Origin: Candidatus Blochmanniella floridana
GTDB taxonomy: Bacteria > Pseudomonadota > Gammaproteobacteria > Enterobacterales > Enterobacteriaceae
Assembly (NCBI GenBank): GCA_000043285.1
Contig: BX248583.1
Location: 420,001-452,000, forward strand
Direction: 5' to 3'
Length of the DNA stretch: 32,000 nucleotides
In this document: positions 3,805 to 19,620 of the stretch, piece after piece
Layout: each line of letters starts with the position of its first letter
How positions within the stretch are numbered: the stretch's first letter is position 1
The notes under the pieces: generated by a model
Told to the model about the DNA's origin: nothing
Databases searched by the model: none
What the model saw: only the letters and a program-made list of their open reading frames with translations
Made by a program: the position numbers and the translations under genes

Positions 3805-4151
3805 AAAACTCATTATATATTAAATAAATATTACCTAAAATTTTTCCTATTATACACTATAAAATACCTAATCAATAACAGTTAATTATCAAACTGATAA
3901 ATATATCGTATATTTAATCATTATTACCTTAATTACATTATTACTTATTATTAAAAATATAATCAATCTAACACATTATATAATAATGCAATCTTTTTAA
4001 TAATCAATTTATTCATATAAATTACTATAATGAAAATTAATTTATACTTATGTTATAATAATCGTTTAACCAGTTAATATTAAATTATTAACAATCATTT
4101 ATATGATGAAGTAAATATACAAACAATGATATATTAATTTTACCAAAATTC

Positions 4152-4784
4152 TTAGAATTTCATTCTCTGATCATCTAACTGAATATCATCAGAAAGAGTA
4201 AAACAAAATTTATCTTGATTAATTAAATTTACACATTGATTAGATAAATAATAATCAATGTGTTGCTTATTTTCTTGTATTATACTAAACTGATCAATAA
4301 TACCGCGGTCAGTAATTTTAATTTTAAATTGTTTTATATGCTTACCATCATCATACGAAGATTTAAAATAGAACCAATCCTTTTTCTGAGTAATTGTATA
4401 ATCCTGCCATATATTAGTATTACTCATAAATAATAATTGTAAAAAAACATTGTTAGAAATAATATTTTCCAAACAATATGCTGTAACTTGTTTAATCGTA
4501 GGAACATAAAACCAAAGCGTCTTTCCATCAGAAATTAAAAAGCTTTCTTGAGATCCCATAACATGACAATAAAATAAGTTAGGCCTTTTTATCCACAATT
4601 CTCCTCGTATTAATTCTATTTCTTTCATATTACAGAAATTAATTTTTTGTACAAAATGCACATACAAATTATTTATTAAATTTAAACGATTTTTTAACAC
4701 ACAATATGGTTCCAATGAATGAACAACACATATAGAACTTGATAAAAAAACAATTAAACAAAAAAAATATATAAATAATTTCAC
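4152..4784 (-). CDS. lolA: periplasmic outer-membrane lipoprotein carrier LolA
   Basis: 210 aa with a signal peptide. [42 protein letters not shown] aligns with E. coli Lol[43 protein letters not shown]. The C-terminal DDQR motif is present. It lies downstream of ftsK as in E. coli. Confidence 0.93.
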
Positions 4785-8525: not shown

Positions 8526-8648
8526 TTTTCATCTCGCATTATTAATATAATATGTAAAATATCGAAATATGTGGAATATTTTACATTATCAATGTATATA
8601 ATATATATCATAACAAATTTAATATTTCATTATTTAAACGAGATTCAA

Positions 8649-8867
8649 ATGATAAAAGAAGATAATATTGAAATGCATGGTATAGTGTTAGATACATTAC
8701 CTAATACTATGTTTCGAGTACAACTAGAAAACGGCCACAAAATTACGGCACATATCTCTGGAAAAATCAGAAAAAATTACATTAGGATATTAACTGGAGA
8801 TAAAGTCACGGTGGAATTAACACCATATGATTTAAGTAAAGGTAGAATTATTTTTAGAAGTAGATGA
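8649..8867 (+). CDS. infA: translation initiation factor IF-1
   Basis: The track ORF 8571..8867 has an unsupported 26-codon N-terminal extension. From the ATG at 8649 the 72-aa product is [30 protein letters not shown]...[29 protein letters not shown], nearly identical to E. coli IF1. Confidence 0.96.
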
Positions 8868-8900
8868 TAATATTAATAATAAATATTTGAAAATTATTTT

Positions 8901-8943
8901 AAAAACATAATATATATGAATCATAAGTATATATTATGTTTTT
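8901..8943. terminator. Bidirectional intrinsic terminator shared by convergent infA and the TonB-dependent receptor gene
   Basis: The structure is aaaaa-CATAATATATA-[tgaatcataag]-TATATATTATG-ttttt. The 11-bp core stem is flanked by A5 and T5, so a U-tract follows the hairpin on both strands. The whole inverted repeat extends to 21 bp (8896-8916 / 8928-8948) and overlaps the receptor stop codon (8942-8944). Confidence 0.5.
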
Positions 8944-11104
8944 AAAATGCCACTTCCACATTCATCCACCAAGTTCGTCCTGGTTCATAAACAGATAATT
9001 TATTAGAATTCTTAGAGATACTATAATGATTACTTACATTTATATATTCTTTATAATTTTGATTAAACAAATTATCTACCCCAATATTACATGTGTAATA
9101 TTGGGAAGCTTTCCAAGACATATACATAGATATCACTTCAAAACTCGGAGTATAGCAAGAAGTATTAAGACATTTTTTTGGCAACATAGTATTTGGTAAA
9201 ATTAAAGAAGAGATCCCCATTATACGCTGAGATGAAGATACCAATCTCCATGAAGCTCCTACTATATATTTCTTTTGTTTAAACTGTAATGTTAATCTAC
9301 CTTCTAATGGAGAAATTGTTGGTAATACACATCTATCATTCATATTCCACCCCCATGGATATGATATGTTACTTTCCCCATACCAATAATCATTAAATTG
9401 ATAACTTAATCCCATTTCAGTTCCATATATTTTAACATAGACATTATGTATATAATCAATACTATTCTTACTTCGTACTTCATTTTTATTATCATTATGA
9501 TGACAATAAATAAAATCTTTTATATATCCTGCATAAGATGATATCCATCCAGTAACTCGAGATTTTTTAAAATATGTACCTACATCTATTTGAATTGTCT
9601 TCTCAGGTTTTAATTTAAAAATTGAATCTGTCTGTTTTGAACATTCATTTGATTCAAAAGACATTAATTCCCAATAATCAGGAAAACGACAACACATACC
9701 TATTCCACAATAATACAAACATGAAGAAGATATATTATTCTCATAGCGTATAAATCCAGCAGGATATAATAAATTATTTTTATATCTTTTCATACCATAA
9801 TTATTGAAAAAATCAATCATACTATACTCTAATCTAATACCCCCAATAATTTTTTTATTCAATAAGGCATCAAAAATTAATTCGGTGAATATTCCAGAAT
9901 CTGTAGAAAAAACATCAACATAAAAAGCATTAGACATACAATCTTTTTGTTTTTTATGTTGATTCAACTGTATATCTATACCACTAAAACATTTAAAATC
10001 TTTCCATTGATAAGTTATCATTCCTCTAGATCCCCATAAAACACGATCAACATTGTTTATATTACTAACAACACTACAACAATGTTTATTATAAGTCGAT
10101 GTTACTGATGTCATAGAAACGGGTATAGTATTATTCATCATAATATGATGAATATGATGATTCCAAATCTGAAATTCTATTTCACTTATAATATCATCAA
10201 TATCTGAAGTGATTATTTTTAATCCATAACTTTCTCTAGAAAAACATAACCCATCCATTGCCTTAGTCGCATAGTTTGCTCTACCATTTCCTTGCCCTAA
10301 ATTAACTATTAGATATGTATTTGATTTTAAATTAAATGATAAATTTGAATCGAAGTTCCACTTATACCATGCTGAATGTACCCTATGATTATTAGCATCT
10401 CGATAATCTCCAGAATAATCACAATTCCCTATTAATCGAATATAACCATATTTATTACCAAATATAGTATCTATGTTTCTTTTTATACTATTAAATGACC
10501 CAATTGTAAAATTACTACGCATTTTAACATCTGATAAATCAAAACGAGGATGATATCTCTGGAACTGTATAGTACCACCTGAAGTTACTGGGCCCCACAA
10601 CACTGTCTGAGGACCTTTAACAAAATTTAAAATATCAAAATTTCCTGGAGCAATATAAGATGTAGCAGGATCCATTCGAAATAAACAAGCTCCAATAATT
10701 TCTCCTGTATCAACCAGAATATGCATCTTAGATCCAGGTATACCTCGAAATACAAAATCATTATTTGCTCCTCCATAGCGAATAACAGAAAAACCAGAAA
10801 TATTTTTTAATAAATCTGCAGCATCAATGATATATTTAGTATTCAAAGAATCTATAGAAGTAGATGTAGAAACTAAAGAGTTATTTATATCTGCAGTAAC
10901 AGTAATGATCTCACAATTGGTACTATCTGCAACAATATCAGAAGATATTTCTTGATAATCAGATTTTAACGATGATACCCCCGTAGGCTGAAGAACATGA
11001 AAAACACTCTTATTATTAGAGTAAGCCCAATTAACCATATATAAAACATGCATAATCAGCACTAATCGCAAGAACCAACAAATTTTTTTAAAAAAATGAA
11101 TCAT
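8942..11104 (-). CDS. TonB-dependent outer-membrane transporter, OprC/NosA (copper)-like
   Basis: The track ORF 8942..11143 begins at a TTG. The first ATG (11104) gives MIHFFKKICWFLRLVLIMHVLYMVNWA/YS, a plausible signal peptide, with GGGA upstream. A TonB-box-like EIITVTA is present. The plug region reads FVFRGIPGSKMHILVDTGEIIGACLFRMDPATSYIAPGNFDILNFVKGPQTVLWGPVTSGGTIQF. A barrel FR(F)PDYWEL motif is present, and the C-terminal WWMNVEVAF ends in the aromatic residue typical of TonB-dependent barrels. A 2.2-kb uninterrupted ORF in DNA this AT-rich argues for purifying selection. Confidence 0.8.
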   Translation of the reverse strand: MIHFFKKICWFLRLVLIMHVLYMVNWAYSNNKSVFHVLQPTGVSSLKSDYQEISSDIVADSTNCEIITVTADINNSLVSTSTSIDSLNTKYIIDAADLLKNISGFSVIRYGGANNDFVFRGIPGSKMHILVDTGEIIGACLFRMDPATSYIAPGNFDILNFVKGPQTVLWGPVTSGGTIQFQRYHPRFDLSDVKMRSNFTIGSFNSIKRNIDTIFGNKYGYIRLIGNCDYSGDYRDANNHRVHSAWYKWNFDSNLSFNLKSNTYLIVNLGQGNGRANYATKAMDGLCFSRESYGLKIITSDIDDIISEIEFQIWNHHIHHIMMNNTIPVSMTSVTSTYNKHCCSVVSNINNVDRVLWGSRGMITYQWKDFKCFSGIDIQLNQHKKQKDCMSNAFYVDVFSTDSGIFTELIFDALLNKKIIGGIRLEYSMIDFFNNYGMKRYKNNLLYPAGFIRYENNISSSCLYYCGIGMCCRFPDYWELMSFESNECSKQTDSIFKLKPEKTIQIDVGTYFKKSRVTGWISSYAGYIKDFIYCHHNDNKNEVRSKNSIDYIHNVYVKIYGTEMGLSYQFNDYWYGESNISYPWGWNMNDRCVLPTISPLEGRLTLQFKQKKYIVGASWRLVSSSQRIMGISSLILPNTMLPKKCLNTSCYTPSFEVISMYMSWKASQYYTCNIGVDNLFNQNYKEYINVSNHYSISKNSNKLSVYEPGRTWWMNVEVAF

Positions 11105-11533
11105 ATATATCCCGATATTATTGTGTATATTTTTAACAACCAAAATATCAACTATTATAATAAATATTATAATCTTACTGACATGTTAGTACATAAATAT
11201 TTTATTTTAGATTCATCATCACGTATAATAATTATGTATTTTAAACACTTTAATATTAAAATACATAAACAATAAAATTATGTATTAATCATATTAAACG
11301 AAATGAACAATATATAAAATTAATTTATAATATTTGTATACACGCACTAGATTTTTAAAATGTCTTATTGTATTTTTTGTCAAAAAATTTCTATATGAAA
11401 TACAATCACAAAACTTATATTAAATTATTTAAATTAATAAATATTTTAATTCAATTTTATATAATAAAATATGTGTAAAATTTTACATATAAAATACAGA
11501 ACCCAATCCACATATGATACGGAGTATATTTAA
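11105..11533. promoter_or_regulatory. Divergent control region between the receptor gene and the ToxR-like regulator gene
   Basis: 429-bp A/T spacer between two divergent starts. Two copies of the self-complementary octamer ATTATAAT (11154-11161 and 11166-11173, each containing TATAAT) lie about 50-70 bp upstream of the receptor ATG. A perfect 14-bp palindrome TGTAAAATTTTACA (11474-11487) lies 47 bp upstream of the regulator ATG. A GGAG Shine-Dalgarno sits 9 nt before the ATG at 11534. Confidence 0.4.
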
Positions 11534-12172
11534 ATGAAATACATTATTCATTCAAATATAGCTTTTGACACCACAGAATATATTTTAACATCATTACATG
11601 ATTCTCATGCATCAATAAAGTTATCTACTTCTGCTGGAAGAATTTTAGAAGAACTAATTAAAAATCGTAATACTGGATTACCAGTAACTCGTGAACATCT
11701 ATTTACAACAGTTTGGAAAACACATGGATTAGAACCATCTAATGGAAATCTTAATCAACAAGTAAGTCTAATACGAAAAACTTTAACTTTACTTGGATTA
11801 AATTCCTCATCCATCATAACAGTTCCTAAGAGAGGATTAAAAATAAATAACCAATTAATTATAGAAGCTGTTCATAATAACTCTCCCAATCCTCAATCCA
11901 CTGTAAATCCTATAGAAAATCAAATTAATAACACACCGCCATTACCAAATACTATTTTAAAAAATACTATAACATACGTAAAATATATTCTTATTTTAAC
12001 TGCTATGCTAATCATAATTTTTAGCATAGGATTTATATATTTATATAACAAAACAAATAATACTAAACTATATTGCTGTAAAGAAATAAATTCATGCGAT
12101 ATTTGTGACTTTCCAATAATACTAGAATTTACATGTAACAATTACAATGCATTATATTCAAAAACTATTTAA
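11534..12172 (+). CDS. ToxR/TcpP/CadC-type membrane-anchored transcriptional regulator (OmpR/PhoB-type winged helix, one TM helix, short Cys-rich periplasmic tail)
   Basis: 212 aa. Residues about 28-106 fit the Trans_reg_C pattern: IKLSTSAGRILEELIKNRNTGLPVTREHLFTTVWKTHGLEPSNGNLNQQVSLIRKTLTLLGL...IITVPKRGLKI. A P/N-rich linker follows, then one hydrophobic helix YVKYILILTAMLIIIFSIGFIYLY. The 41-aa tail is NKTNNTKLYCCKEINSCDICDFPIILEFTCNNYNALYSKTI. There is no receiver domain, so this is a one-component ToxR-like architecture. Confidence 0.75.
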   Translation: MKYIIHSNIAFDTTEYILTSLHDSHASIKLSTSAGRILEELIKNRNTGLPVTREHLFTTVWKTHGLEPSNGNLNQQVSLIRKTLTLLGLNSSSIITVPKRGLKINNQLIIEAVHNNSPNPQSTVNPIENQINNTPPLPNTILKNTITYVKYILILTAMLIIIFSIGFIYLYNKTNNTKLYCCKEINSCDICDFPIILEFTCNNYNALYSKTI

Positions 12173-12219
12173 ACAAACAACTATTACTTACTAGTATTCA
12201 ACCATGATTTGCACAATTG

Positions 12220-12241
12220 AATGATTATAACAATAATCATT
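12220..12241. terminator. Small A/T hairpin between the convergent regulator and emtA 3' ends (weak terminator candidate)
   Basis: aatgattat-aaca-ataatcatt gives a 9-bp stem and 4-nt loop, followed by attat on the + strand. It is a weak structure and there is no clean U-tract. Confidence 0.2.
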
Positions 12242-12451
12242 ATTATATATACAAAATAGTTATTAAACTTTTTCTTCCTAAAAAAACTGATATATTTCAT
12301 TATCTAAATAAAAAAATTTCATATATTTATAATTACTAATTTTTAATGAATTTCCTATTAAATCTCATCCTATATGTTTTACAATATATTTTTTTCAAAA
12401 GAACAATATATTATCTATAATAATACATCAATTTTATATTTTATAATAAAT

Positions 12452-13117
12452 TTAAAACGCACTTTTTAACATATATACAGAATTAACTTTAGACAAATAA
12501 CGTTGAGCCTGATTAGATGGATGATGATATTTTATATATTGATAAAACTGTTCAGGATTAAGTTGATTAATTTTTGAAATAGCACGAGAACGATCCTCAG
12601 AAAATACTTTTAATAAAGCTCCTAACCCATTAACATATGCAACAATTACAGCATAACGTCTTGTTTTTACATTAATGATATCTTTCAGTTGATTTTGCAA
12701 TATAGACAAATAAACAGTACCAATTTCAATATTAATGACAGCATTTTTTAAATCATTAGTACTAGGTTGACCTTCCCATCCCTTTAAACGATATGCATCC
12801 TTACCAGCAGTATCTGCTTTAATTTGCATTAATCCAATAGCGTTAGATTTACTAATTACAGTAGAATCATAATTAGACTCTACTTGAATAATAGATTTAA
12901 TTAAATATTTATCTACTCCATACATCTGAGAATAACGTTGTATATATATATCATACATTGTTGACAAATCAGCTCGTTTTTGATTGGAAAAATTTTTTTT
13001 AATTTGACAATCATAATTTTTATCCACAAAAGATATATTTGTATTATTTTTTTTATACTGTGAACAACCCCCGCAATTAATTATAATTATAATTATATAT
13101 AAAAAATACAAGTTCAT
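12452..13117 (-). CDS. emtA: membrane-bound endo-type lytic murein transglycosylase (lipoprotein)
   Basis: The track ORF is 12452..13207. The internal ATG at 13117 gives [20 protein letters not shown], a signal peptide with a lipobox-like GGC followed by Ser. [51 protein letters not shown]...[35 protein letters not shown] aligns closely with E. coli EmtA/MltE ([51 protein letters not shown]...). The catalytic Glu is retained. Confidence 0.88.
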   Translation of the reverse strand: [221 protein letters not shown]

Positions 13118-13592
13118 TATGAATGAATAATACCTGAATTTATCTTTTAAAATTCTTATTTTCAGAAAATTACAACATATAAAAATACAATTAAACGTCA
13201 AAATCACACTACAACATTAATCAATATTAAAATAAATTTATACTATGTACTTAATTGATTATTTTTTGTATAATAAACTTTATAAAAATATTTTATCTAC
13301 AGTTTCAACAATTACTAAGATTATATCAAATTCTAAAAACTATCAAACAAAACAATTAAATCATATCAATATAACACATATAATACCATTCCATTATTTA
13401 TTTTAATATCTCAATTATATATTAAATGATTATTCAATAGTTATTTACGAAAAAATTCATTAAATTTCAATTAACCTGCATACATATAATATTTAATAAA
13501 AATAATTAAATATAAATAATTTAATATATAATACATATTTACAATTTTTTAATGATTATTAACAACATCAATTTAACAAAATAATATTAATT

Positions 13593-14702
13593 ATGAAAAA
13601 AGTTATTGTTGGAATATCAGGAGGAGTAGATTCATCGGTAGCTGCGTGGTTATTGCAACAACAAGGATATCTTGTAGAAGGATTATTTATGAAAAACTGG
13701 GAAAACGATGATGAAAAAGAATATTGTTCTTCAGAAGAAGACTTATCAGATGCATGGTCTATTTGCAATACTTTAAAAATACCATTACATACTGTAAATT
13801 TTGCTCAAGAATATTGGGAAAATGTTTTTCAAGTATTTTTACAAGCATATCAATCTGGATTCACTCCCAATCCTGATGTTTTATGCAACAAAGAAATCAA
13901 ATTTAAACATTTTTTGGATTTTGCTCTTGAAGATTTAGGAGCAGATTTTATAGCTACAGGACATTATGTACGTTGTATGAATGTTAAGAAAAAAATAACC
14001 CTTATGAAAGGAATAGATCAAAATAAAGATCAAAGTTATTTTTTATACACATTAAACCAACAACAACTCAAACGATGTTTATTTCCTATTGGTTCTCTGA
14101 CTAAATTAACAGTTAGAAAGATTGCTAAGGAATTAAATTTAATTACAGCAAATAAAAAAGATTCTACAGGTATTTGTTTTATTGGTAAACGTAATTTTAG
14201 AAGTTTTCTCAGTAACTATATAGCAATACAACCAGGAGATATTATTAATATACATGGCAATAAACTAGGTTTACATCAAGGTATTCCATTTTATACTATA
14301 GGTCAAAGAAAAGGATTAAATATTGGAGGTATATCAAATGGTAATGGAAAACCATGGTATGTAGTAGATAAAAATATAACACATAATGTATTAATTGTCG
14401 CACAAGGTATAAATCATCCATGTCTTATGTCTCGGATATTCATTGTACAAAAAATATTTTGGATAAAAGGAAATATTTTAAAATCACCAATACAATGTTC
14501 TGTAAAAATCCGATATCAACAATCAGATGTTCAATGTCAAATATATCCAATCTCAGTTGATACATTAAAAATTATTCTAAAACAACCGGTGACAGCAATT
14601 GCCCCAGGACAATCAGCGGTATTCTATATAAAAAAACACTGTATTGGAGGAGGGACAATTATAAAACGTTTTCCTTTAATACATATTAAAAATTATTACT
14701 AG
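13593..14702 (+). CDS. mnmA: tRNA-specific 2-thiouridylase
   Basis: 369 aa with the PP-loop VIVGISGGVDSSVAAWLLQQQGY. FMKNWENDD, NPDVLCNKEIKF and DQSYFLY are typical MnmA/TrmU blocks. Confidence 0.95.
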   Translation: MKKVIVGISGGVDSSVAAWLLQQQGYLVEGLFMKNWENDDEKEYCSSEEDLSDAWSICNTLKIPLHTVNFAQEYWENVFQVFLQAYQSGFTPNPDVLCNKEIKFKHFLDFALEDLGADFIATGHYVRCMNVKKKITLMKGIDQNKDQSYFLYTLNQQQLKRCLFPIGSLTKLTVRKIAKELNLITANKKDSTGICFIGKRNFRSFLSNYIAIQPGDIINIHGNKLGLHQGIPFYTIGQRKGLNIGGISNGNGKPWYVVDKNITHNVLIVAQGINHPCLMSRIFIVQKIFWIKGNILKSPIQCSVKIRYQQSDVQCQIYPISVDTLKIILKQPVTAIAPGQSAVFYIKKHCIGGGTIIKRFPLIHIKNYY

Positions 14703-14940
14703 TAAGCTATTATTTAATATCACCAATTTAATTAATATAAATTATCATTAACAATAAATATATATTTCATAATAAAATTAAAAATACTTATTATCAACAA
14801 AACATATTGCGCAATTACATAAATAGACATATATTACGTTGAAGATTATAAATTTTAATATTACTAACATAAATGTCATCATATTATATGACAATATATC
14901 GAGTCTATTTTAAGTATCATTATACAATAAATATATAAAA

Positions 14941-16326
14941 GTGAACAAATTTTCTCCATTAACCGCTATTTCTCCAATCGATGGACGTTATTATCATCAA
15001 ACTCATCCACTAAGAAATATTTTTAGTGAATTTGGGTTATTAAAATTTCGCATTCAAATTGAAATTCATTGGATACAAAAATTATCTCATACAATAGAAA
15101 TCACAGAAATACCTGTATTTACTGAAATTGAACTAAATTTCTTAAATAACTTAATTACAAATTTTAATATCACAGACGCAAAACATATTAAAAAAATAGA
15201 AAAAATCACTAAACATGATGTAAAAGCAATAGAATATTTTTTAAAAGAAAAAATAAGTGTTTTACCTGATTTAAAAAAGAAAATCAATGAATTTATCCAT
15301 TTTGCATGTACTTCAGAAGATATTAATAATCTTGCTTACGGTTTAATGATTTCTCATACCAAAAATACTATCATATTACCTATATGGAAAAAAATTATTG
15401 ATATTATTAAAAAAATAAGCATCAAATATAAAAATACTCCTATTCTTTCCAGAACACATGGACAACCAGCTAGTCCTTCTACTCTTGGCAAAGAAACGGC
15501 TAATATCGCATATCGATTAATACGACAATATCATTACTTAAAATCAATCAAAATTTTAGGAAAAATGAATGGAGCAGTTGGTAACTATAACGCTCACATT
15601 ATAGCGTATCCAAAAATAAATTGGAGAAAATTTGACGAAGAGTTTGTTACATCATTAGGAATTTCATGGAACCCATATACTACGCAAATAGAACCACATG
15701 ATTACATAGTTGAAATCTCTAATCGCATTATTCATTTTAATACTATTTTAATTAAATTTAATCAAGATATCTGGGGATATCTTTCTTTAAATTATTTTCA
15801 ACAAGCATATAGTCAATTTGAAATTGGTTCATCTACTATGCCCCATAAAATTAATCCAATAAATTTTGAAAATTCTGAAGGTAATTTGGGTTTATCTAAT
15901 GCTATTTTTAATCATTTTTCTAAAAAATTACCAATATCACGTTGGCAACGTGATTTAAGTGACTCCACCGTACTAAGAAATTTAGGAGTAGCTATTGGAC
16001 ATTCTTTAATTGCTTATCACAATTTATTAAAAGGTATAGACAAATTAATCATTAATGAAAAATATTTGTTACAAGATTTAAATAAAAATTGGATAATATT
16101 AAGTGAAGCTATTCAAACAGTAATGAAAAAATACAACATTCATAATTCTTATGAACGTACGAAAGATTTTATATTCAACGAAAAAGTTAATCCCGATACT
16201 ATAAAAAAATTTATTGAATCTCTACCTTTACCAACATCAGAAAAAACCCGATTGCAACATATTACTCCATCTGAATATATTGGATTAGCTCCGGATATTG
16301 CCAATGATATAATAAAATTTGAATAA
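14941..16326 (+). CDS. purB: adenylosuccinate lyase
   Basis: 461 aa with a GTG start. The N-terminus (M)NKFSPLTAISPIDGRY aligns residue-for-residue with E. coli MELSSLTAVSPVDGRY, so no downstream ATG is needed. The fumarate-lyase signature GSSTMPHKINP is present, as is FACTSEDINNL. Confidence 0.95.
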   Translation: MNKFSPLTAISPIDGRYYHQTHPLRNIFSEFGLLKFRIQIEIHWIQKLSHTIEITEIPVFTEIELNFLNNLITNFNITDAKHIKKIEKITKHDVKAIEYFLKEKISVLPDLKKKINEFIHFACTSEDINNLAYGLMISHTKNTIILPIWKKIIDIIKKISIKYKNTPILSRTHGQPASPSTLGKETANIAYRLIRQYHYLKSIKILGKMNGAVGNYNAHIIAYPKINWRKFDEEFVTSLGISWNPYTTQIEPHDYIVEISNRIIHFNTILIKFNQDIWGYLSLNYFQQAYSQFEIGSSTMPHKINPINFENSEGNLGLSNAIFNHFSKKLPISRWQRDLSDSTVLRNLGVAIGHSLIAYHNLLKGIDKLIINEKYLLQDLNKNWIILSEAIQTVMKKYNIHNSYERTKDFIFNEKVNPDTIKKFIESLPLPTSEKTRLQHITPSEYIGLAPDIANDIIKFE

Positions 16327-16428
16327 TAATTATATATTCAATGACAAAATACAACTATATGTTATACAATACTATTAAATATTACAACTTTAATTAAACT
16401 TCTTCATAATATACACATGCAGATGAAA

Positions 16429-17679
16429 TTATTTCAATATTCGACTCAAATTAATTTTTTTTGTTTTCCATAAAGAAATCCAATTAATCAATAATCCTAA
16501 TAATAATACTATTCCTAATATTATAAACACATCTATACTCTTTAATTGTACAGGTATAAAATCAATAAAATAAATTTCTCTAGGAGAAATATTAATTTCA
16601 AAAAATCTAATTAACCTAGTACTAATATTTTTTAAATTCATAGATATATATATACCTATACTAGATCCTAAAATACTAGCAATACAATAAATAAAAAAAC
16701 CATACCACAAAAATATAGATTGAATTAACATATCTCGAGCACCCAGTACTCTTAATATTGCAATATCATAATTTTTATTTTTTATAGACAAAAATAAAGT
16801 AGTAATTACACTAAAACAAGAAATTGCTATAATTAATATCATTGATAAATATATTATTATCCGAACAATTTGAATATCTCTATAAATATATCCATAAATA
16901 TCCATCCAACTATGTACTTGAATATTTTCATTTTCACGTATTTTACATTTTATTATTTCTATAATACGACCAATATCAAAAGCATTATTGACTGAAAATT
17001 CGATTCCATCAATATCTAATTTATTATTAGAATATTTTTGAATATCCGAGAAAGATATTATAGCTAAATTATTATCTAATTGACTATGTAATTTTAATAT
17101 TCCAGACACCTGTACATATGCTTTTTTAAGCAACAATAATCTCTTTTCTGAATGAAAATTATTAGCAAATAAAATAGTAATCCAATCTCCTTCTCGAATA
17201 TTTAATGCAATTGCTACTCCTTCCCCTAAAATAATTTGATTTTTATGTTCACAAAAATATTTCCAAGATTTTTTTTCTATAAAATTAATCAATGTATGAT
17301 TATATATATTGATATTATTTGATAAATCTATACTTTTAATATAAACTACATGCCATTGATTATTATACTCAATCACTCCAGACAAACGAATATAAGGATT
17401 AGTATAAATAATATTAGGTATCTTCTTAATACAATTTAATATTTTCTTCCAATTAACAAACGAAATATTAGCTGATTTAGTAATTTCTCCATGAGGTACA
17501 ACAGATAAAATACGATGATTTAACTCAAATTCAAATCCATTAATTATACTTAACACAAGTATAGCCGTAGAAATCCCAATAGCAATAATAATAATAGAAA
17601 TAAAAGATATTAAAGATATTAATGTATTTCTTTTAAAACTTTGATGAAAACGCAACGCAATTCTTAAAGAAAGTATCAT
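16429..17679 (-). CDS. lolE: lipoprotein-releasing ABC transporter permease LolE
   Basis: 416 aa. LRFHQSFKRNTLISLISFISIIIIAIGISTAILVLSIINGFEFELNHRILSVVPHGEI matches the E. coli LolE start (...[24 protein letters not shown]). It is the third gene of the lolCDE order. Confidence 0.9.
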   Translation of the reverse strand: MILSLRIALRFHQSFKRNTLISLISFISIIIIAIGISTAILVLSIINGFEFELNHRILSVVPHGEITKSANISFVNWKKILNCIKKIPNIIYTNPYIRLSGVIEYNNQWHVVYIKSIDLSNNINIYNHTLINFIEKKSWKYFCEHKNQIILGEGVAIALNIREGDWITILFANNFHSEKRLLLLKKAYVQVSGILKLHSQLDNNLAIISFSDIQKYSNNKLDIDGIEFSVNNAFDIGRIIEIIKCKIRENENIQVHSWMDIYGYIYRDIQIVRIIIYLSMILIIAISCFSVITTLFLSIKNKNYDIAILRVLGARDMLIQSIFLWYGFFIYCIASILGSSIGIYISMNLKNISTRLIRFFEINISPREIYFIDFIPVQLKSIDVFIILGIVLLLGLLINWISLWKTKKINLSRILK

Positions 17680-17705
17680 TTTATAATAAAATTATATACA
17701 TATAT

Positions 17706-18413
17706 TTATATTGTACTAATCTTTAACATACCATTTGATACAATATAAATCTTATGACATTTTTTAGCTAAACTTAAATCATGAGTTGCTATTACAAAAG
17801 TTGTTCCATACCACAAATTTATTTTTTCTAATAATTTAAAAACATTATTTGAATTACTCTCATCTAAATTACCAGTAGGTTCATCAGCCAACACTAAAGG
17901 TGGATTGTTTATAATTGCTCGAGCTACAGCGACTCTCTGACTTTCTCCTCCAGAAAGTTCGCATGGATAACGATCACATAAATTATTCAACCCAATTAAC
18001 TCTAATATAAATTGAGCTTTATGTTTAGCTATAGCAAATTTTAATCCCTTAATCAATAATGGCATTGCAATATTTTCTAAAACAGAAAAATCTGGTAACA
18101 GATGATGAAATTGATATATAAATCCTATAGATGTATTACGCATAATTGAACAATCTTTATCAGATAACTTATTTAATGCACGACCTTCTAAAAATACATC
18201 TCCTGAAGTAGGTTTATCTAATCCTCCCATGATATGTAATAAAGTACTTTTCCCTGACCCAGATGCTCCTATTATTGCTATAATTTTATTATATTCTATA
18301 GACATAGTAATACCGTCCAATACTGTTATCGAAAAATTTGAATATTGATACCGTTTTATTATATTAGAACAACATAATATCGGCGGAATATCATTAATAT
18401 TTTTATTGACCAT
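17706..18413 (-). CDS. lolD: lipoprotein-releasing ABC transporter ATPase LolD
   Basis: 235 aa with Walker [45 protein letters not shown] (nearly identical to E. coli LolD), the signature LSGGESQR and Walker [13 protein letters not shown]. Its start overlaps the lolC stop by 11 nt (18403-18413), which suggests translational coupling. Confidence 0.95.
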
Positions 18414-19620
18414 GACGTAATACCTGAGCAGGATATATGGACGATATATACCAAGCAGGATACAATATAATTAATACTATGAATCCACAAATCATCAAAC
18501 TTATATTGAATATTTGAATAAATGGTATCTCTATAGGAAAATATAAATTTTCAGAAAAAATATTTAGCAAAAATAATATTTGGTTTAGTTTTTTTGCTAA
18601 ACATACTCCTAACCCCACACCACATATTATACCTAATACACCACTACTTACACCTTGTATTATCAATAATATTACTATTTGCAGTCTATTAAATCCATAT
18701 GTTTGTAAAATCGCTATTTCTTTATGTTTTTCTGTGATCAATAGAACCAAAAATGCAATAATGTTACCGCTTACCGTGACTATCATTAAAATAAATAAAA
18801 AAAACATAACATTTTTTTCCATTTTTATAGCTTGAAATAAAGAACCTTTATACTTACGCCAATCTGTCCATATCCAATCCTTAGGACATTGCCATTGCTC
18901 CAATTTACTTACTTTAAATGGCTCATCTATCCATATTCTCCACCCCGTAATATTTTGAGGAGGATAATTTAATAAAACTGCAGCATCATTTTTATGTACC
19001 AATACTTGACAAGAATCAATTTCATCATTACTAGAATGATAAATATCTAAAATTGTAAACAAACGTTGAATAGGAAAACAACCAATAGGTGTATTGTAAT
19101 GAATAGATGGTACAGTTAAACGAATTTGGTCATGTATATTGACCGATAATTTTTGAGCTAATGCAGAACCAATAATAATATAATATTTGCCAGAAATTAA
19201 CTGACTGACATTATGATGAATTAAATAATCAAATAATGGTTCAAAATGATTAGGATCAACTCCAAACATCATTCCCAATGATATCGATTTAGAACTTTGT
19301 AAGATTATATCAGAAAAAATCAAAGGCTTAATATATGTTATATTATTTTTTATTGCAGGTAATGATAAAAAATCAGGAATATTTTTACTATTTATATATC
19401 CTTGAGTAGAAGTAACTACCACATGTGGAATCAAATATAAAAGATTTTTTTTTAATTCACTTTCAAAACCATTCATCACCGACAATATTATAATCATTGC
19501 TGACATACTTAACATTATAAATATACTAGAAACCCAATAAATACACTGATTCAATCTATTTACTGTTTTTCCATATATATAACGCGATGCAACAAATAAC
19601 ACAACTAATAGCATATGCAT
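18403..19620 (-). CDS. lolC: lipoprotein-releasing ABC transporter permease LolC
   Basis: 405 aa. [28 protein letters not shown] and [22 protein letters not shown] align with E. coli LolC ([50 protein letters not shown]). Confidence 0.92.

What the first reader, a model, noticed from the sequence alone, without database searches (positions are those of the whole stretch)
8942..12172. Divergent pair at the only synteny break: an intact OprC-like TonB-dependent transporter and a ToxR/TcpP-type membrane regulator
Every other gene in the window is a core housekeeping gene in E. coli-like order. Exactly where the two syntenic blocks meet (infA | emtA) sit two genes with no counterpart at either E. 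coli locus.
- One is a 720-aa TonB-dependent barrel with a TonB box, a plug domain and a terminal Phe.
- The other starts 429 bp away on the opposite strand and is a 212-aa one-component regulator (winged helix, one TM helix, short periplasmic tail).

Reduced endosymbiont genomes typically shed both regulators and energised outer-membrane importers, so keeping both as uninterrupted ORFs in stop-codon-rich AT DNA implies selection. The head-to-head layout suggests the regulator controls the transporter. I know of no ToxR-like regulator described as the dedicated controller of a TonB-dependent metal transporter; those are normally under Fur, ECF sigma/anti-sigma, or two-component control.
Basis: partly seen in the sequence, partly recalled or inferred. 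Interest (0 to 1): 0.7.

Follow-up and report, generated by a model that had tools for sequence, protein, structure and literature searches.

The report
Blochmannia copper importer beside YqeI regulator
The two genes are real and intact, but they are the already-annotated oprC (copper importer) and yqeI (membrane-anchored regulator) of the ant endosymbiont Blochmannia floridanus, and relatives keep the regulator after losing the importer, so it is not that importer's dedicated switch.

Summary
The window is Candidatus Blochmannia floridanus. The two ORFs are exactly as described. They are Bfl389 (oprC) and Bfl390 (yqeI), already named in published ortholog tables.

OprC is a full-length ortholog of P. 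aeruginosa OprC. All four copper ligands (CxxxM-HxM), a canonical TonB box and the terminal Phe are present. The genome has tonB (Bfl432) but no exbBD; tolQR is present.

The regulator is a ToxR/YqeI-type transmembrane wHTH protein. It has lost about 60 residues of periplasmic sensor domain and its FidL-like partner gene.

The divergent layout is inherited, not Blochmannia-specific. Biostraticola tofi has TBDT-DUF2946 facing yqeI-fidL-GGDEF, and Sodalis sp. Psp has the pair next to trxB. Other Sodalis/Acerihabitans genomes keep yqeI-fidL without the transporter. Serratia, Pectobacterium, Citrobacter and Photorhabdus keep the transporter without the regulator.

Blochmannia of Polyrhachis and Colobopsis lost oprC together with tonB but kept an intact yqeI with an equally conserved DNA-binding domain. 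Wigglesworthia also keeps yqeI, with no transporter within 7 kb.

A dedicated regulator-transporter pairing is therefore not supported. Regulation of oprC as one target among several cannot be excluded. Interest is low.

The parts
8942..11104 (-). oprC (Bfl389), 720-aa OprC/NosA-type TonB-dependent copper receptor precursor. The open frame extends upstream to a TTG at 11143.
   Evidence: ORF. Pfam Plug and barrel hits. TIGR01778 448.6 bits. Aligns over residues 93-720 to P. aeruginosa OprC (PDB 6FOK), E 3.7e-113. 100% identical to P0042 'outer membrane protein OprC', Blochmanniella floridana. Locus tag from PMC3017870 Additional file 1.
10892..10912 (-). TonB box, EIITVTA (residues 65-71 of the 720-aa protein).
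   Evidence: It matches the classical acidic-x-hydrophobic-V/T-V-T-A pattern of BtuB, FepA and FhuA (my knowledge). In free-living orthologs the motif reads DVITVTA. It is degenerate in several other Blochmannia.
10571..10855 (-). Plug domain (PF07715).
   Evidence: residues 97-191 of the 733-aa ORF, 32.5 bits.
10673..10687 (-). CxxxM half of the copper site (Cys140, Met144).
   Evidence: Invariant in 24 orthologs. Aligns to OprC Cys143 and Met147, which are the copper ligands in PMC8610252.
10139..10147 (-). HxM half of the copper site (His320, Met322).
   Evidence: Invariant in 24 orthologs. Aligns to OprC His323 and Met325.
9068..10420 (-). 22-strand beta-barrel region (PF00593). The protein ends in Phe.
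   Evidence: residues 242-692 of the 733-aa ORF, 73.6 bits. C-terminus ...NVEVAF.
11105..11533 (.). 429-bp divergent spacer, 16% GC. It presumably holds both promoters. No DUF2946 remnant is detectable.
   Evidence: Sigma-70-like sites are not enriched: 10 found against 10.5 expected. tblastn with Biostraticola DUF2946 gives no hit.
11347..11357 (+). CTAGATTTTTA, the only block shared by the spacers of the four oprC-bearing Blochmannia examined. It is a weak candidate cis element.
   Evidence: It is a single exact copy in the window, and there is one copy in each of L027, L028 and L029. It is absent from the oprC-less L026. However, an exact 9-mer shared by all four spacers arises in about 23% of dinucleotide shuffles.
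11534..12172 (+). yqeI (Bfl390), 212-aa ToxR/YqeI-type transmembrane transcription regulator.
   Evidence: 28% identity to E. coli K-12 YqeI, E 5e-19. Profile matches the V. cholerae ToxR DNA-binding domain, E 1.9e-13. Published description in PMC1360075.
11612..11836 (+). Winged helix-turn-helix (Trans_reg_C), residues 27-101, containing the invariant motif SNGNLNQQxSxIRK.
   Evidence: Identity to homologs is 65-85%, from Biostraticola through all Blochmannia.
11978..12046 (+). Single transmembrane helix, residues about 149-171.
   Evidence: Hydropathy maximum at residues 152-170. PMC1360075 gives 149-171.
12047..12169 (+). Truncated periplasmic tail of about 41 residues carrying CC-x5-C-x2-C (C181, C182, C188, C191). 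It lacks the roughly 60-residue C-terminal part found in the 267-271-aa Sodalis, Biostraticola and Wigglesworthia proteins.
   Evidence: Alignment A1. Wigglesworthia 267-aa protein.
8649..8867 (+). infA (Bfl388), the left flank.
12452..13207 (-). emtA/mltE (Bfl391), the right flank. There is no room for a fidL-like gene between it and yqeI (279 bp).
   Evidence: (SLT domain in the B. vafer ortholog). No FidL tblastn hit in the window.

Best explanation
The locus is the stripped-down remnant of an arrangement still visible in the free-living relative Biostraticola tofi. There, an OprC-type copper importer and its DUF2946 gene face a YqeI-type 'co-component' regulator cassette (transmembrane wHTH regulator, FidL-like lipocalin partner, dCache-GGDEF). 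In B. floridanus only oprC and yqeI survive.

OprC (shown). It is a structurally complete OprC ortholog with an intact plug, barrel, TonB box, CxxxM-HxM copper site and terminal Phe.

OprC (inferred). It imports ionic copper across the outer membrane. It is pulled by TonB (Bfl432), with TolQR standing in for the missing ExbBD. The copper supplies cytochrome bo3 oxidase (cyoABCDE), the only evident copper enzyme. The function is useful but dispensable, because oprC and tonB have disappeared together from the Polyrhachis and Colobopsis lineages.

YqeI (shown). It is a membrane-tethered ToxR-like regulator that has lost the C-terminal part of its periplasmic domain and its partner gene, while its DNA-binding domain stays highly conserved.

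YqeI (inferred). It is kept for one or more targets other than oprC, since it persists unchanged where oprC is gone, and also persists in Wigglesworthia. The head-to-head layout is inherited synteny, frozen in a genome that rarely rearranges. It may additionally modulate oprC, but that is neither shown nor needed to explain its retention.
For: - Identity of the genes.
- Copper ligands invariant in 24 orthologs and matching OprC Cys143/Met147/His323/Met325.
- Ancestral-like layouts: Biostraticola L002 has TBDT(-) DUF2946(-) | yqeI(+) FidL_like(+) GGDEF(+). Sodalis sp. Psp L001 has lolA-ftsK-lrp-trxB | TBDT | yqeI.
- The regulator and fidL are the conserved unit, without a TBDT, in nine Sodalis, Acerihabitans and related loci.
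- A TBDT with DUF2946 but no regulator occurs in Serratia, Pectobacterium, C. koseri and Photorhabdus. A TBDT stands alone in the Ctenarytaina secondary symbiont.
- oprC and tonB are listed only for Camponotus-clade Blochmannia, whereas yqeI is listed in all. There is no exbB or exbD, but tolQRA and cyoABCDE are in all (PMC4389277 Table S3).
- Bfl432 is annotated as tonB. No copA, cueR, cueO, fur or sodC is listed (PMC3017870).
- Direct check: the Polyrhachis symbiont has infA, then 1,456 bp with no oprC trace, then an intact yqeI.
- wHTH identity is equal in oprC-less and oprC-bearing lineages. Published dN for yqeI is 0.26-0.31, which is ordinary for this genome.
- Wigglesworthia yqeI is 267 aa and lies between pgpA and rpoD.
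- Tol and Ton motors cross-complement in E. coli (PMC12215075).
- Members of the co-component family and their partners are described in PMC9214523.
Against: - The TBDT-yqeI adjacency is shared by three lineages (Biostraticola, Sodalis sp. Psp, Blochmannia). Characterised members of this regulator family often control a neighbouring gene, for example MarT/FidL and misL. A regulatory link to oprC is therefore plausible and is not excluded.
- The block CTAGATTTTTA is present only in the oprC-bearing spacers.
- Function of OprC is not demonstrated. exbBD are absent. tonB has one of the highest dN values listed (0.64-0.75). TIGR01778 scores just below its cut-off. In sister species the TonB box is degenerate and the terminal residue is Leu.
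- Absence of OprC from Wigglesworthia rests on 14 kb of sequence and on its absence from the 120 best homologs, not on a whole-genome search.
Confidence: 0.7

Rival explanations
1. One reading: YqeI is the dedicated one-component controller of oprC. It senses a periplasmic or membrane signal and switches the divergent oprC promoter.
For: - The genes are head to head with a 429-bp spacer.
- The adjacency is conserved in all Camponotus-clade Blochmannia examined, in Sodalis sp. Psp and in Biostraticola.
- The family tends to regulate neighbouring genes.
- A shared CTAGATTTTTA block occurs only in oprC-bearing spacers.
- How oprC is regulated is reported as unknown even in Pseudomonas.
Against: - yqeI stays intact, with an undiminished DNA-binding domain, in lineages that lost oprC, and it is retained in Wigglesworthia.
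- Most genomes with the regulator do not have the TBDT beside it.
- Genomes with the TBDT mostly lack an adjacent regulator.
- The sensor domain is truncated and the partner gene is lost.
- The shared block is not statistically distinguishable from chance.
Confidence: 0.07
2. Pleiotropic model: YqeI regulates several genes, oprC among them. Loss of oprC in some lineages simply removed one target.
For: The same adjacency and family-habit evidence as above. It is compatible with yqeI persisting after oprC loss. [quoted passage not shown]
Against: There is no direct evidence for binding. No motif is shared upstream of yqeI, or in the spacers, beyond shuffled controls. Promoter-like sites are not enriched.
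Confidence: 0.3
3. Relic model: oprC in B. floridanus is no longer a working energised importer. It is a slowly decaying gene, or a passive channel, kept open by chance or by a secondary structural role in the outer membrane.
For: - There is no exbB or exbD in any Blochmannia.
- tonB dN is 0.64-0.75 and oprC dN is 0.38-0.42, both on the fast side.
- oprC and tonB are lost outright in two or more lineages.
- The TonB box is degenerate and the C-terminal residue is Leu in several sister species.
- TIGR01778 is below its cut-off.
Against: - A 720-codon open frame has probability 1.4e-30 by chance.
- At least 20 distinct Blochmannia OprC proteins of 708-747 aa were recovered intact.
- All four copper ligands are invariant.
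- oprC and tonB are retained together and lost together, which is what a functional coupling predicts.
- TolQR can substitute for ExbBD.
Confidence: 0.12

Closest known systems
Pseudomonas aeruginosa OprC (PA3790; PDB 6FOK and 6Z8Q; PMC8610252)
   Same: The two proteins align end to end (E 3.7e-113), with a plug and a 22-strand barrel. The copper ligands Cys143, Met147, His323 and Met325 are identical, and both have a TonB box.
   Different: Identity is only about 35%, and the composition is AT-driven. There is no PA3789 (FoxB/PepSY_TM-like) operon partner, and none of the DUF2946 gene that precedes the enterobacterial orthologs. The genome lacks ExbBD. Transport has not been tested.
Enterobacterales DUF2946-TBDT operon ('TonB-dependent copper receptor', TIGR01778) of Serratia, Pectobacterium, Citrobacter koseri and Photorhabdus
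   Same: An orthologous transporter at 35-38% identity, with the same copper site and TonB box region.
   Different: Those operons have DUF2946 upstream and no ToxR-like neighbour. Blochmannia has lost DUF2946 and sits beside yqeI.
E. coli YqeI/YqeJ and Salmonella MarT/FidL co-component systems (VtrA/ToxR superfamily; PMC9214523)
   Same: An N-terminal OmpR-type wHTH, a linker, one TM helix and a conserved Cys just after the helix. Identity to YqeI is 28%, E 5e-19. Free-living orthologs have an overlapping or abutting FidL_like (PF15941) partner gene.
   Different: The Blochmannia protein lacks the C-terminal beta-strands of the periplasmic domain. According to PMC9214523, these carry the conserved disulfide and contact the lipocalin partner. 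The partner gene is absent. There is no pathogenicity-island context. The orthologous group defined by the SNGNLNQQ motif is confined to Sodalis, Acerihabitans, Biostraticola, Wigglesworthia and Blochmannia.
Vibrio cholerae ToxR/ToxS
   Same: The DNA-binding domain is recognisably homologous (PDB 8B4B, E 1.9e-13), and the membrane topology is the same.
   Different: ToxR has a folded periplasmic domain stabilised by ToxS, and it regulates porins and toxT. Here there is no partner and only a stub of a periplasmic domain.
Biostraticola tofi locus SMCR01000006.1 (L002)
   Same: The same divergent TBDT | yqeI arrangement. Identity is 35% for the transporter and 42% for the regulator.
   Different: It retains DUF2946, the FidL-like partner, the full 270-aa regulator and a downstream dCache-GGDEF gene.

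Membership tests
OprC/NosA-type TonB-dependent copper receptor | N-terminal plug domain (PF07715) | tested here: met
   32.5 bits against a cut-off of 23.9.
OprC/NosA-type TonB-dependent copper receptor | TonB-dependent beta-barrel (PF00593) with a C-terminal aromatic residue | tested here: met
   73.6 bits against a cut-off of 27. The protein ends ...VAF.
OprC/NosA-type TonB-dependent copper receptor | Score at or above the curated cut-off of the NCBIfam equivalog TIGR01778 | tested here: not met
   448.6 bits against a cut-off of 472.45, covering profile positions 14-637 of 637. The shortfall is narrow and fits the extreme AT-driven divergence of the sequence. NCBI names several other Blochmannia orthologs 'TonB-dependent copper receptor'.
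OprC/NosA-type TonB-dependent copper receptor | CxxxM-HxM copper-binding site (OprC Cys143, Met147, His323, Met325) | tested here: met
   Cys140, Met144, His320 and Met322 align to the OprC ligands and are invariant in 24 orthologs. Ligand identities come from PMC8610252.
OprC/NosA-type TonB-dependent copper receptor | TonB box near the N-terminus of the mature protein | tested here: met
   EIITVTA at residues 65-71. It is judged against the classical consensus from my own knowledge.
OprC/NosA-type TonB-dependent copper receptor | TonB-ExbB-ExbD energising complex encoded in the genome | tested here: inconclusive
   tonB is annotated as Bfl432. exbB and exbD are absent from the published gene tables. 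tolQ and tolR are present and can cross-complement in E. coli. I could not read the tonB sequence itself.
OprC/NosA-type TonB-dependent copper receptor | Copper binding and TonB-dependent copper import | not testable with these tools
   This needs ICP-MS or uptake assays with the expressed protein.
ToxR/VtrA-type co-component transmembrane regulator (YqeI/MarT subfamily) | N-terminal cytoplasmic OmpR/PhoB-type winged helix (PF00486) | tested here: met
   30.8 bits against a cut-off of 26.2. ToxR DNA-binding domain PDB 8B4B at E 1.9e-13, and CadC 5JU7 at E 3e-4.
ToxR/VtrA-type co-component transmembrane regulator (YqeI/MarT subfamily) | Single transmembrane helix after a variable linker | tested here: met
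   Hydropathy peak of 2.78 at residues 152-170. PMC1360075 reports 149-171.
ToxR/VtrA-type co-component transmembrane regulator (YqeI/MarT subfamily) | Sequence homology to E. coli YqeI | tested here: met
   28% identity over 204 residues, E 5e-19, extending through the TM helix to the conserved Cys.
ToxR/VtrA-type co-component transmembrane regulator (YqeI/MarT subfamily) | Folded periplasmic domain with a conserved C-terminal disulfide | tested here: not met
   The tail is only about 41 residues. The last roughly 60 residues of the 267-271-aa orthologs, including their C-terminal Cys pair, are missing in all Blochmannia.
ToxR/VtrA-type co-component transmembrane regulator (YqeI/MarT subfamily) | Adjacent lipocalin-like partner gene (ToxS, YqeJ or FidL) | tested here: not met
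   There is no FidL-like hit in the window, and only 279 bp lie between yqeI and emtA. The partner is present in 11 free-living or less reduced relatives.
Dedicated regulator-transporter gene pair | The two genes co-occur and are lost together across genomes | tested here: not met
   - Regulator without transporter: the Polyrhachis symbiont, B. obliquus and B. turneri, Wigglesworthia within 7 kb, and nine Sodalis, Acerihabitans and related loci.
- Transporter without adjacent regulator.
- It is tonB that co-varies with oprC.
Dedicated regulator-transporter gene pair | The regulator binds the shared intergenic region | not testable with these tools
   No motif rises above shuffled controls. EMSA or DAP-seq is needed.

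The most novel reading that the evidence does not exclude
A YqeI-type membrane regulator has shed its lipocalin co-sensor. In Blochmannia it has also shed most of its periplasmic domain and gained a CC-x5-C-x2-C tail. It has been kept with a 65-85% conserved DNA-binding domain in two ancient insect endosymbionts, Blochmannia and Wigglesworthia, and in their Sodalis-clade relatives. It would then be one of the very few transcription factors these genomes retain, controlling a conserved regulon that is still unknown. That regulon might include oprC where oprC exists, with the Cys-rich tail acting as a periplasmic redox or copper sensor.
Probability: 0.2. Interest if true: 0.6.

Novelty: already known. 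Interest (0 to 1): 0.25.

Why it matters
As posed, it matters little. Both genes are annotated, named and listed in published Blochmannia ortholog tables, and the proposed dedicated ToxR-to-TBDT circuit is contradicted by comparative data.

Three modest points remain.
1. oprC and tonB are kept together and lost together in genomes that lack exbBD. That makes Blochmannia a natural test of whether TolQR alone can drive a TonB-dependent transporter.
2. The oprC-yqeI adjacency, and the regulator itself, are shared with Biostraticola and Sodalis. Wigglesworthia shares the regulator only. This supports a common origin of these symbionts.
3. A sensor-less, partner-less ToxR-like regulator under ordinary purifying selection in 0.7-Mb genomes is an open question about what little regulation such symbionts retain.

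Tried and rejected
- **Conserved cis element in the oprC-yqeI spacer.** The only block shared by four species is CTAGATTTT(T)A. An exact shared 9-mer arises in about 23% of dinucleotide shuffles, so I treat it as a weak lead only.
- **Promoter, terminator and repeat scans of 10900-11700.** Ten promoter-like sites against 10.5 expected, no terminators, and one 11-nt two-copy direct repeat. This is not informative in 16% GC DNA.
- **Shared operator upstream of yqeI.** I searched 19 loci (Blochmannia, Wigglesworthia, Sodalis, Acerihabitans, Biostraticola) for 9- and 10-mers with one mismatch. Nothing rose above the shuffled controls.
- **Remnants of lost genes.** I looked for DUF2946 or fidL in the window, and for oprC in the Polyrhachis symbiont spacer. 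None was found.
- **Biostraticola FidL-like protein against E. coli YqeJ by BLASTP.** Not significant, and YqeJ has no Pfam FidL_like hit. The link rests on PMC9214523 and on Pfam PF15941 for the Biostraticola protein.
- **My recollection that PA3789 is a DUF2946 protein.** This was wrong. PMC8610252 describes PA3789 as FoxB-like.
- **Papers and look-ups that failed.** Gil et al. 2003 and Degnan et al. 2005 are not held. P0038, the Colobopsis nipponica symbiont regulator, has no contig on record. The genome-contig scan returned no Blochmannia genome, so I could not read tonB (Bfl432) or search whole Blochmannia or Wigglesworthia genomes.

Full report
**Observation**

The window is AT-rich, with a GC fraction of about 0.2-0.33. 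It carries a 733-codon ORF on the minus strand at 8942..11143; the annotated 720-aa form starts at the ATG at 11104. A 212-codon ORF lies on the plus strand at 11534..12172, separated from it by 429 bp. With the window's base composition, 720 open codons have probability 1.4e-30 and 212 open codons 1.6e-8. Both proteins are 100% identical to proteins of Candidatus Blochmannia (Blochmanniella) floridanus from a 705,557-bp contig. NCBI names them 'outer membrane protein OprC' and 'transcriptional regulatory protein, C terminal domain'. Published ortholog tables list them as oprC = Bfl389 and yqeI = Bfl390, flanked by infA (Bfl388) and mltE/emtA (Bfl391) (PMC3017870 Additional file 1).

**The transporter**

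Pfam finds Plug (32.5 bits) and the TonB-dependent barrel (73.6 bits) above their cut-offs. The NCBIfam equivalog TIGR01778 'TonB-dependent copper receptor' matches over practically its whole length at 448.6 bits, just under its curated cut-off of 472.45.

Residues 93-720 align to the crystallised P. aeruginosa OprC (6FOK) at E 3.7e-113. In that alignment Cys140, Met144, His320 and Met322 fall on OprC Cys143, Met147, His323 and Met325. The structural paper identifies those four residues as the tetrahedral CxxxM-HxM copper site (PMC8610252). All four are invariant in an alignment of 24 orthologs from Blochmannia, Sodalis, Serratia, Photorhabdus, Citrobacter, Pectobacterium and others. A canonical TonB box (EIITVTA, residues 65-71) and a terminal Phe are present.

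At least 20 distinct Blochmannia OprC proteins of 708-747 aa were recovered. On sequence grounds this is a complete OprC-type copper importer.

**Energy supply and copper context**

The three-genome ortholog table lists tonB in B. floridanus (Bfl432), B. vafer and B. pennsylvanicus. It lists no exbB. The six-genome gene-order table likewise has no exbB or exbD, but it has tolQ-tolR-tolA-tolB-pal and cyoABCDE in every lineage (PMC4389277 Table S3). In E. coli the Tol and Ton motors partly complement each other, implying that TonB can work with TolQR (PMC12215075). I therefore infer a TonB-TolQR drive, but I could not read the tonB sequence.

No copA, cueR, cueO, fur or sodC is listed; cutA is. 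Cytochrome bo3 oxidase is thus the obvious copper consumer. This last point is inference from the gene lists plus general knowledge that CyoB carries the CuB centre.

**The regulator**

Trans_reg_C matches residues 27-101. A profile of 14 orthologs matches the V. cholerae ToxR DNA-binding domain (PDB 8B4B, E 1.9e-13) and, more weakly, CadC. One strongly hydrophobic helix lies at about residues 152-170.

The protein is 28% identical (E 5e-19) to E. coli K-12 YqeI. The alignment runs from the N-terminus through the TM helix to a conserved Cys just beyond it. YqeI/YqeJ, MarT/FidL and GrvA/FidL belong to the ToxR/VtrA 'co-component' systems, in which a lipocalin-like periplasmic partner pairs with the regulator's periplasmic domain (PMC9214523).

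The wHTH-plus-TM architecture of Bfl390, and its presence in Wigglesworthia, were published in 2006 (PMC1360075). 'ToxR/TcpP-type membrane regulator' is therefore right, and it is already known.

**What has been lost**

Orthologs in Sodalis sp. Psp, Biostraticola tofi and Wigglesworthia are 267-271 aa. All Blochmannia versions are 197-229 aa and lack the C-terminal roughly 60 residues of the periplasmic domain. According to PMC9214523, in this family that part carries the conserved disulfide and the strand that contacts the partner.

In free-living relatives the next gene is FidL_like (PF15941, 43.7 bits in Biostraticola), usually followed by a dCache-GGDEF gene. In B. floridanus only 279 bp separate yqeI from emtA, and there is no FidL remnant. 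The Blochmannia tail instead carries extra cysteines (CC-x5-C-x2-C in B. floridanus), and C-x6-C-x2-C is present in all Blochmannia compared.

**Is the pairing meaningful?**

The divergent TBDT | yqeI layout is not unique to Blochmannia.
- Biostraticola tofi has TBDT(-) DUF2946(-) | yqeI(+) fidL(+) GGDEF(+).
- The reduced symbiont Sodalis sp. Psp has lolA-ftsK-lrp-trxB | TBDT | yqeI, the same left-hand context as this window.

The association is nevertheless loose in both directions.
- In nine other loci that carry the regulator (Sodalis RH13, RH21, dw_96 and SoCistrobi; four Acerihabitans; and related assemblies), the conserved unit is yqeI-fidL(-GGDEF). In eight of them its upstream neighbours are HxlR-type and FabF-like genes; the short SoCistrobi contig does not show them. 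No TBDT lies within the flanks examined.
- Serratia, Pectobacterium atrosepticum, Citrobacter koseri and Photorhabdus have a DUF2946-TBDT operon with no winged-helix neighbour.
- The reduced secondary symbiont of Ctenarytaina eucalypti keeps the TBDT alone.

**The decisive comparison inside Blochmannia**

Table S3 of PMC4389277 lists yqeI in B. obliquus, B. turneri and the Camponotus clade. It lists oprC and tonB only in the Camponotus clade. The text describes oprC and tonB among the genes 'lost independently in multiple lineages'.

I verified this on a Polyrhachis-symbiont contig. infA is followed by 1,456 bp of non-coding DNA with no tblastn trace of oprC, and then by an intact 229-aa yqeI.

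Identity of the wHTH domain to B. floridanus is 71-74% in the two lineages that lack oprC or are presumed to (the Colobopsis nipponica symbiont's own oprC status was not checked). It is 72-74% in most oprC-bearing lineages, and 73% in Sodalis sp. Psp. Published dN values are 0.26-0.31 for yqeI, which is typical of housekeeping genes there, against 0.38-0.42 for oprC and 0.64-0.75 for tonB.

Wigglesworthia glossinidia keeps a full-length yqeI between pgpA and rpoD, with no TBDT or fidL within 7 kb. No Wigglesworthia protein appears among the 120 best OprC homologs.

The gene that co-varies with oprC is therefore tonB, not yqeI. The regulator's retention cannot be explained by oprC.

**Search for a cis element**

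The four oprC-bearing spacers (347-590 bp, 14-22% GC) share only CTAGATTTT(T)A, at window 11347-11357. It lies 145-209 bp upstream of yqeI and is absent from the oprC-less spacer. An exact shared 9-mer arises in about 23% of shuffles. Promoter-like sites are not enriched. No k-mer is shared upstream of yqeI in 19 loci beyond the shuffled controls. I cannot identify an operator.

**Conclusion**

Both protein-family assignments are right. The inference of a dedicated, novel ToxR-to-TonB-transporter circuit is not supported.

The best reading is inherited synteny. An ancestral Biostraticola-like locus has been reduced to a probably functional but dispensable copper importer and an orphaned, sensor-truncated YqeI-type regulator whose essential targets lie elsewhere. 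That yqeI also modulates oprC remains possible, and I put it at roughly 0.3, given the family's habit of regulating neighbouring genes. No evidence here requires it.

Both genes and their names are already in the literature, so novelty is low. The residual interest lies in TonB function without ExbBD, and in why two ancient endosymbionts keep this regulator.

Noticed in passing
window 13208-13592 (between emtA and mnmA); L028 8662-9126; L029 7788-8252: mntR (Fe_dep_repress family) sits between emtA and mnmA in the B. pennsylvanicus-like and B. ocreatus genomes. It is absent from B. floridanus and B. vafer, where only a gap of about 385 bp remains in the window. The ortholog table lists mntR only as BPEN_403.
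   Followed up: partly
OprC orthologs P0043-P0061 (alignment A4): B. floridanus OprC ends in the canonical Phe and has a canonical TonB box. Most other Blochmannia OprC proteins end in Leu (for example ...KAEIIL, ...KLGMEL) and have degenerate TonB boxes (KVVTIIA, DIMTIIS, TTINIVD). This could mean relaxed constraint, or a shifted BAM/TonB recognition in these symbionts.
   Followed up: partly
L021 7001-7804 (Wigglesworthia glossinidia BA000021.3) and L014 480-1277: Wigglesworthia retains a full-length (267 aa) ortholog of this regulator between pgpA and rpoD, with no FidL-like partner. The SNGNLNQQ-motif orthologous group was found only in Sodalis, Acerihabitans, Biostraticola, Wigglesworthia and Blochmannia. 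That fits a common ancestry of these symbionts.
   Followed up: partly
L023 (NZ_SZPQ01000011.1, labelled Martelella alba BGMRC 2031): A scaffold deposited under an alphaproteobacterial name carries the Sodalis/Acerihabitans-type gene order (FabF-like, HxlR, yqeI, fidL, GGDEF, MsrPQ-like). It is probably a contaminated or mislabelled assembly.
   Followed up: no
L028 5726-5766: A perfect 18-bp inverted repeat with a 5-nt loop (ACTGCTCAAATCAATATC / GATATTGATTTGAGCAGT) lies in the oprC-yqeI spacer of the Camponotus sp. symbiont, just upstream of its CTAGATTTTTA block. It has no counterpart in B. floridanus.
   Followed up: partly
L026 6690-12690 versus window 12172-19620: In the Polyrhachis symbiont the block after yqeI is inverted relative to B. 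floridanus. It reads yqeI | hinT lpoB lolC lolD lolE purB ... instead of yqeI | emtA mnmA purB lolE lolD lolC. The yqeI-emtA junction is therefore an inversion breakpoint, as PMC4389277 Table S3 also shows for B. turneri.
   Followed up: partly
window 8571-8867: The mechanical ORF call for infA starts at a GTG (98 aa). The conserved 72-aa InfA begins at the ATG at 8649.
   Followed up: yes
L001 (Sodalis sp. Psp) 3897-4679 and 8816-10690: In Sodalis sp. Psp, infA is not detectable between trxB and the TBDT. About 1.9 kb of apparently non-coding DNA follows yqeI where fidL and GGDEF would be expected. This looks like ongoing erosion of the same cassette.
   Followed up: partly
PMC4389277 Table S3 / PMC3017870 Additional files: Blochmannia gene lists contain tonB (Camponotus clade) and tolQRA-tolB-pal, but no exbB or exbD. 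tonB and tolA are among the fastest-evolving genes listed (dN 0.5-0.75).
   Followed up: partly
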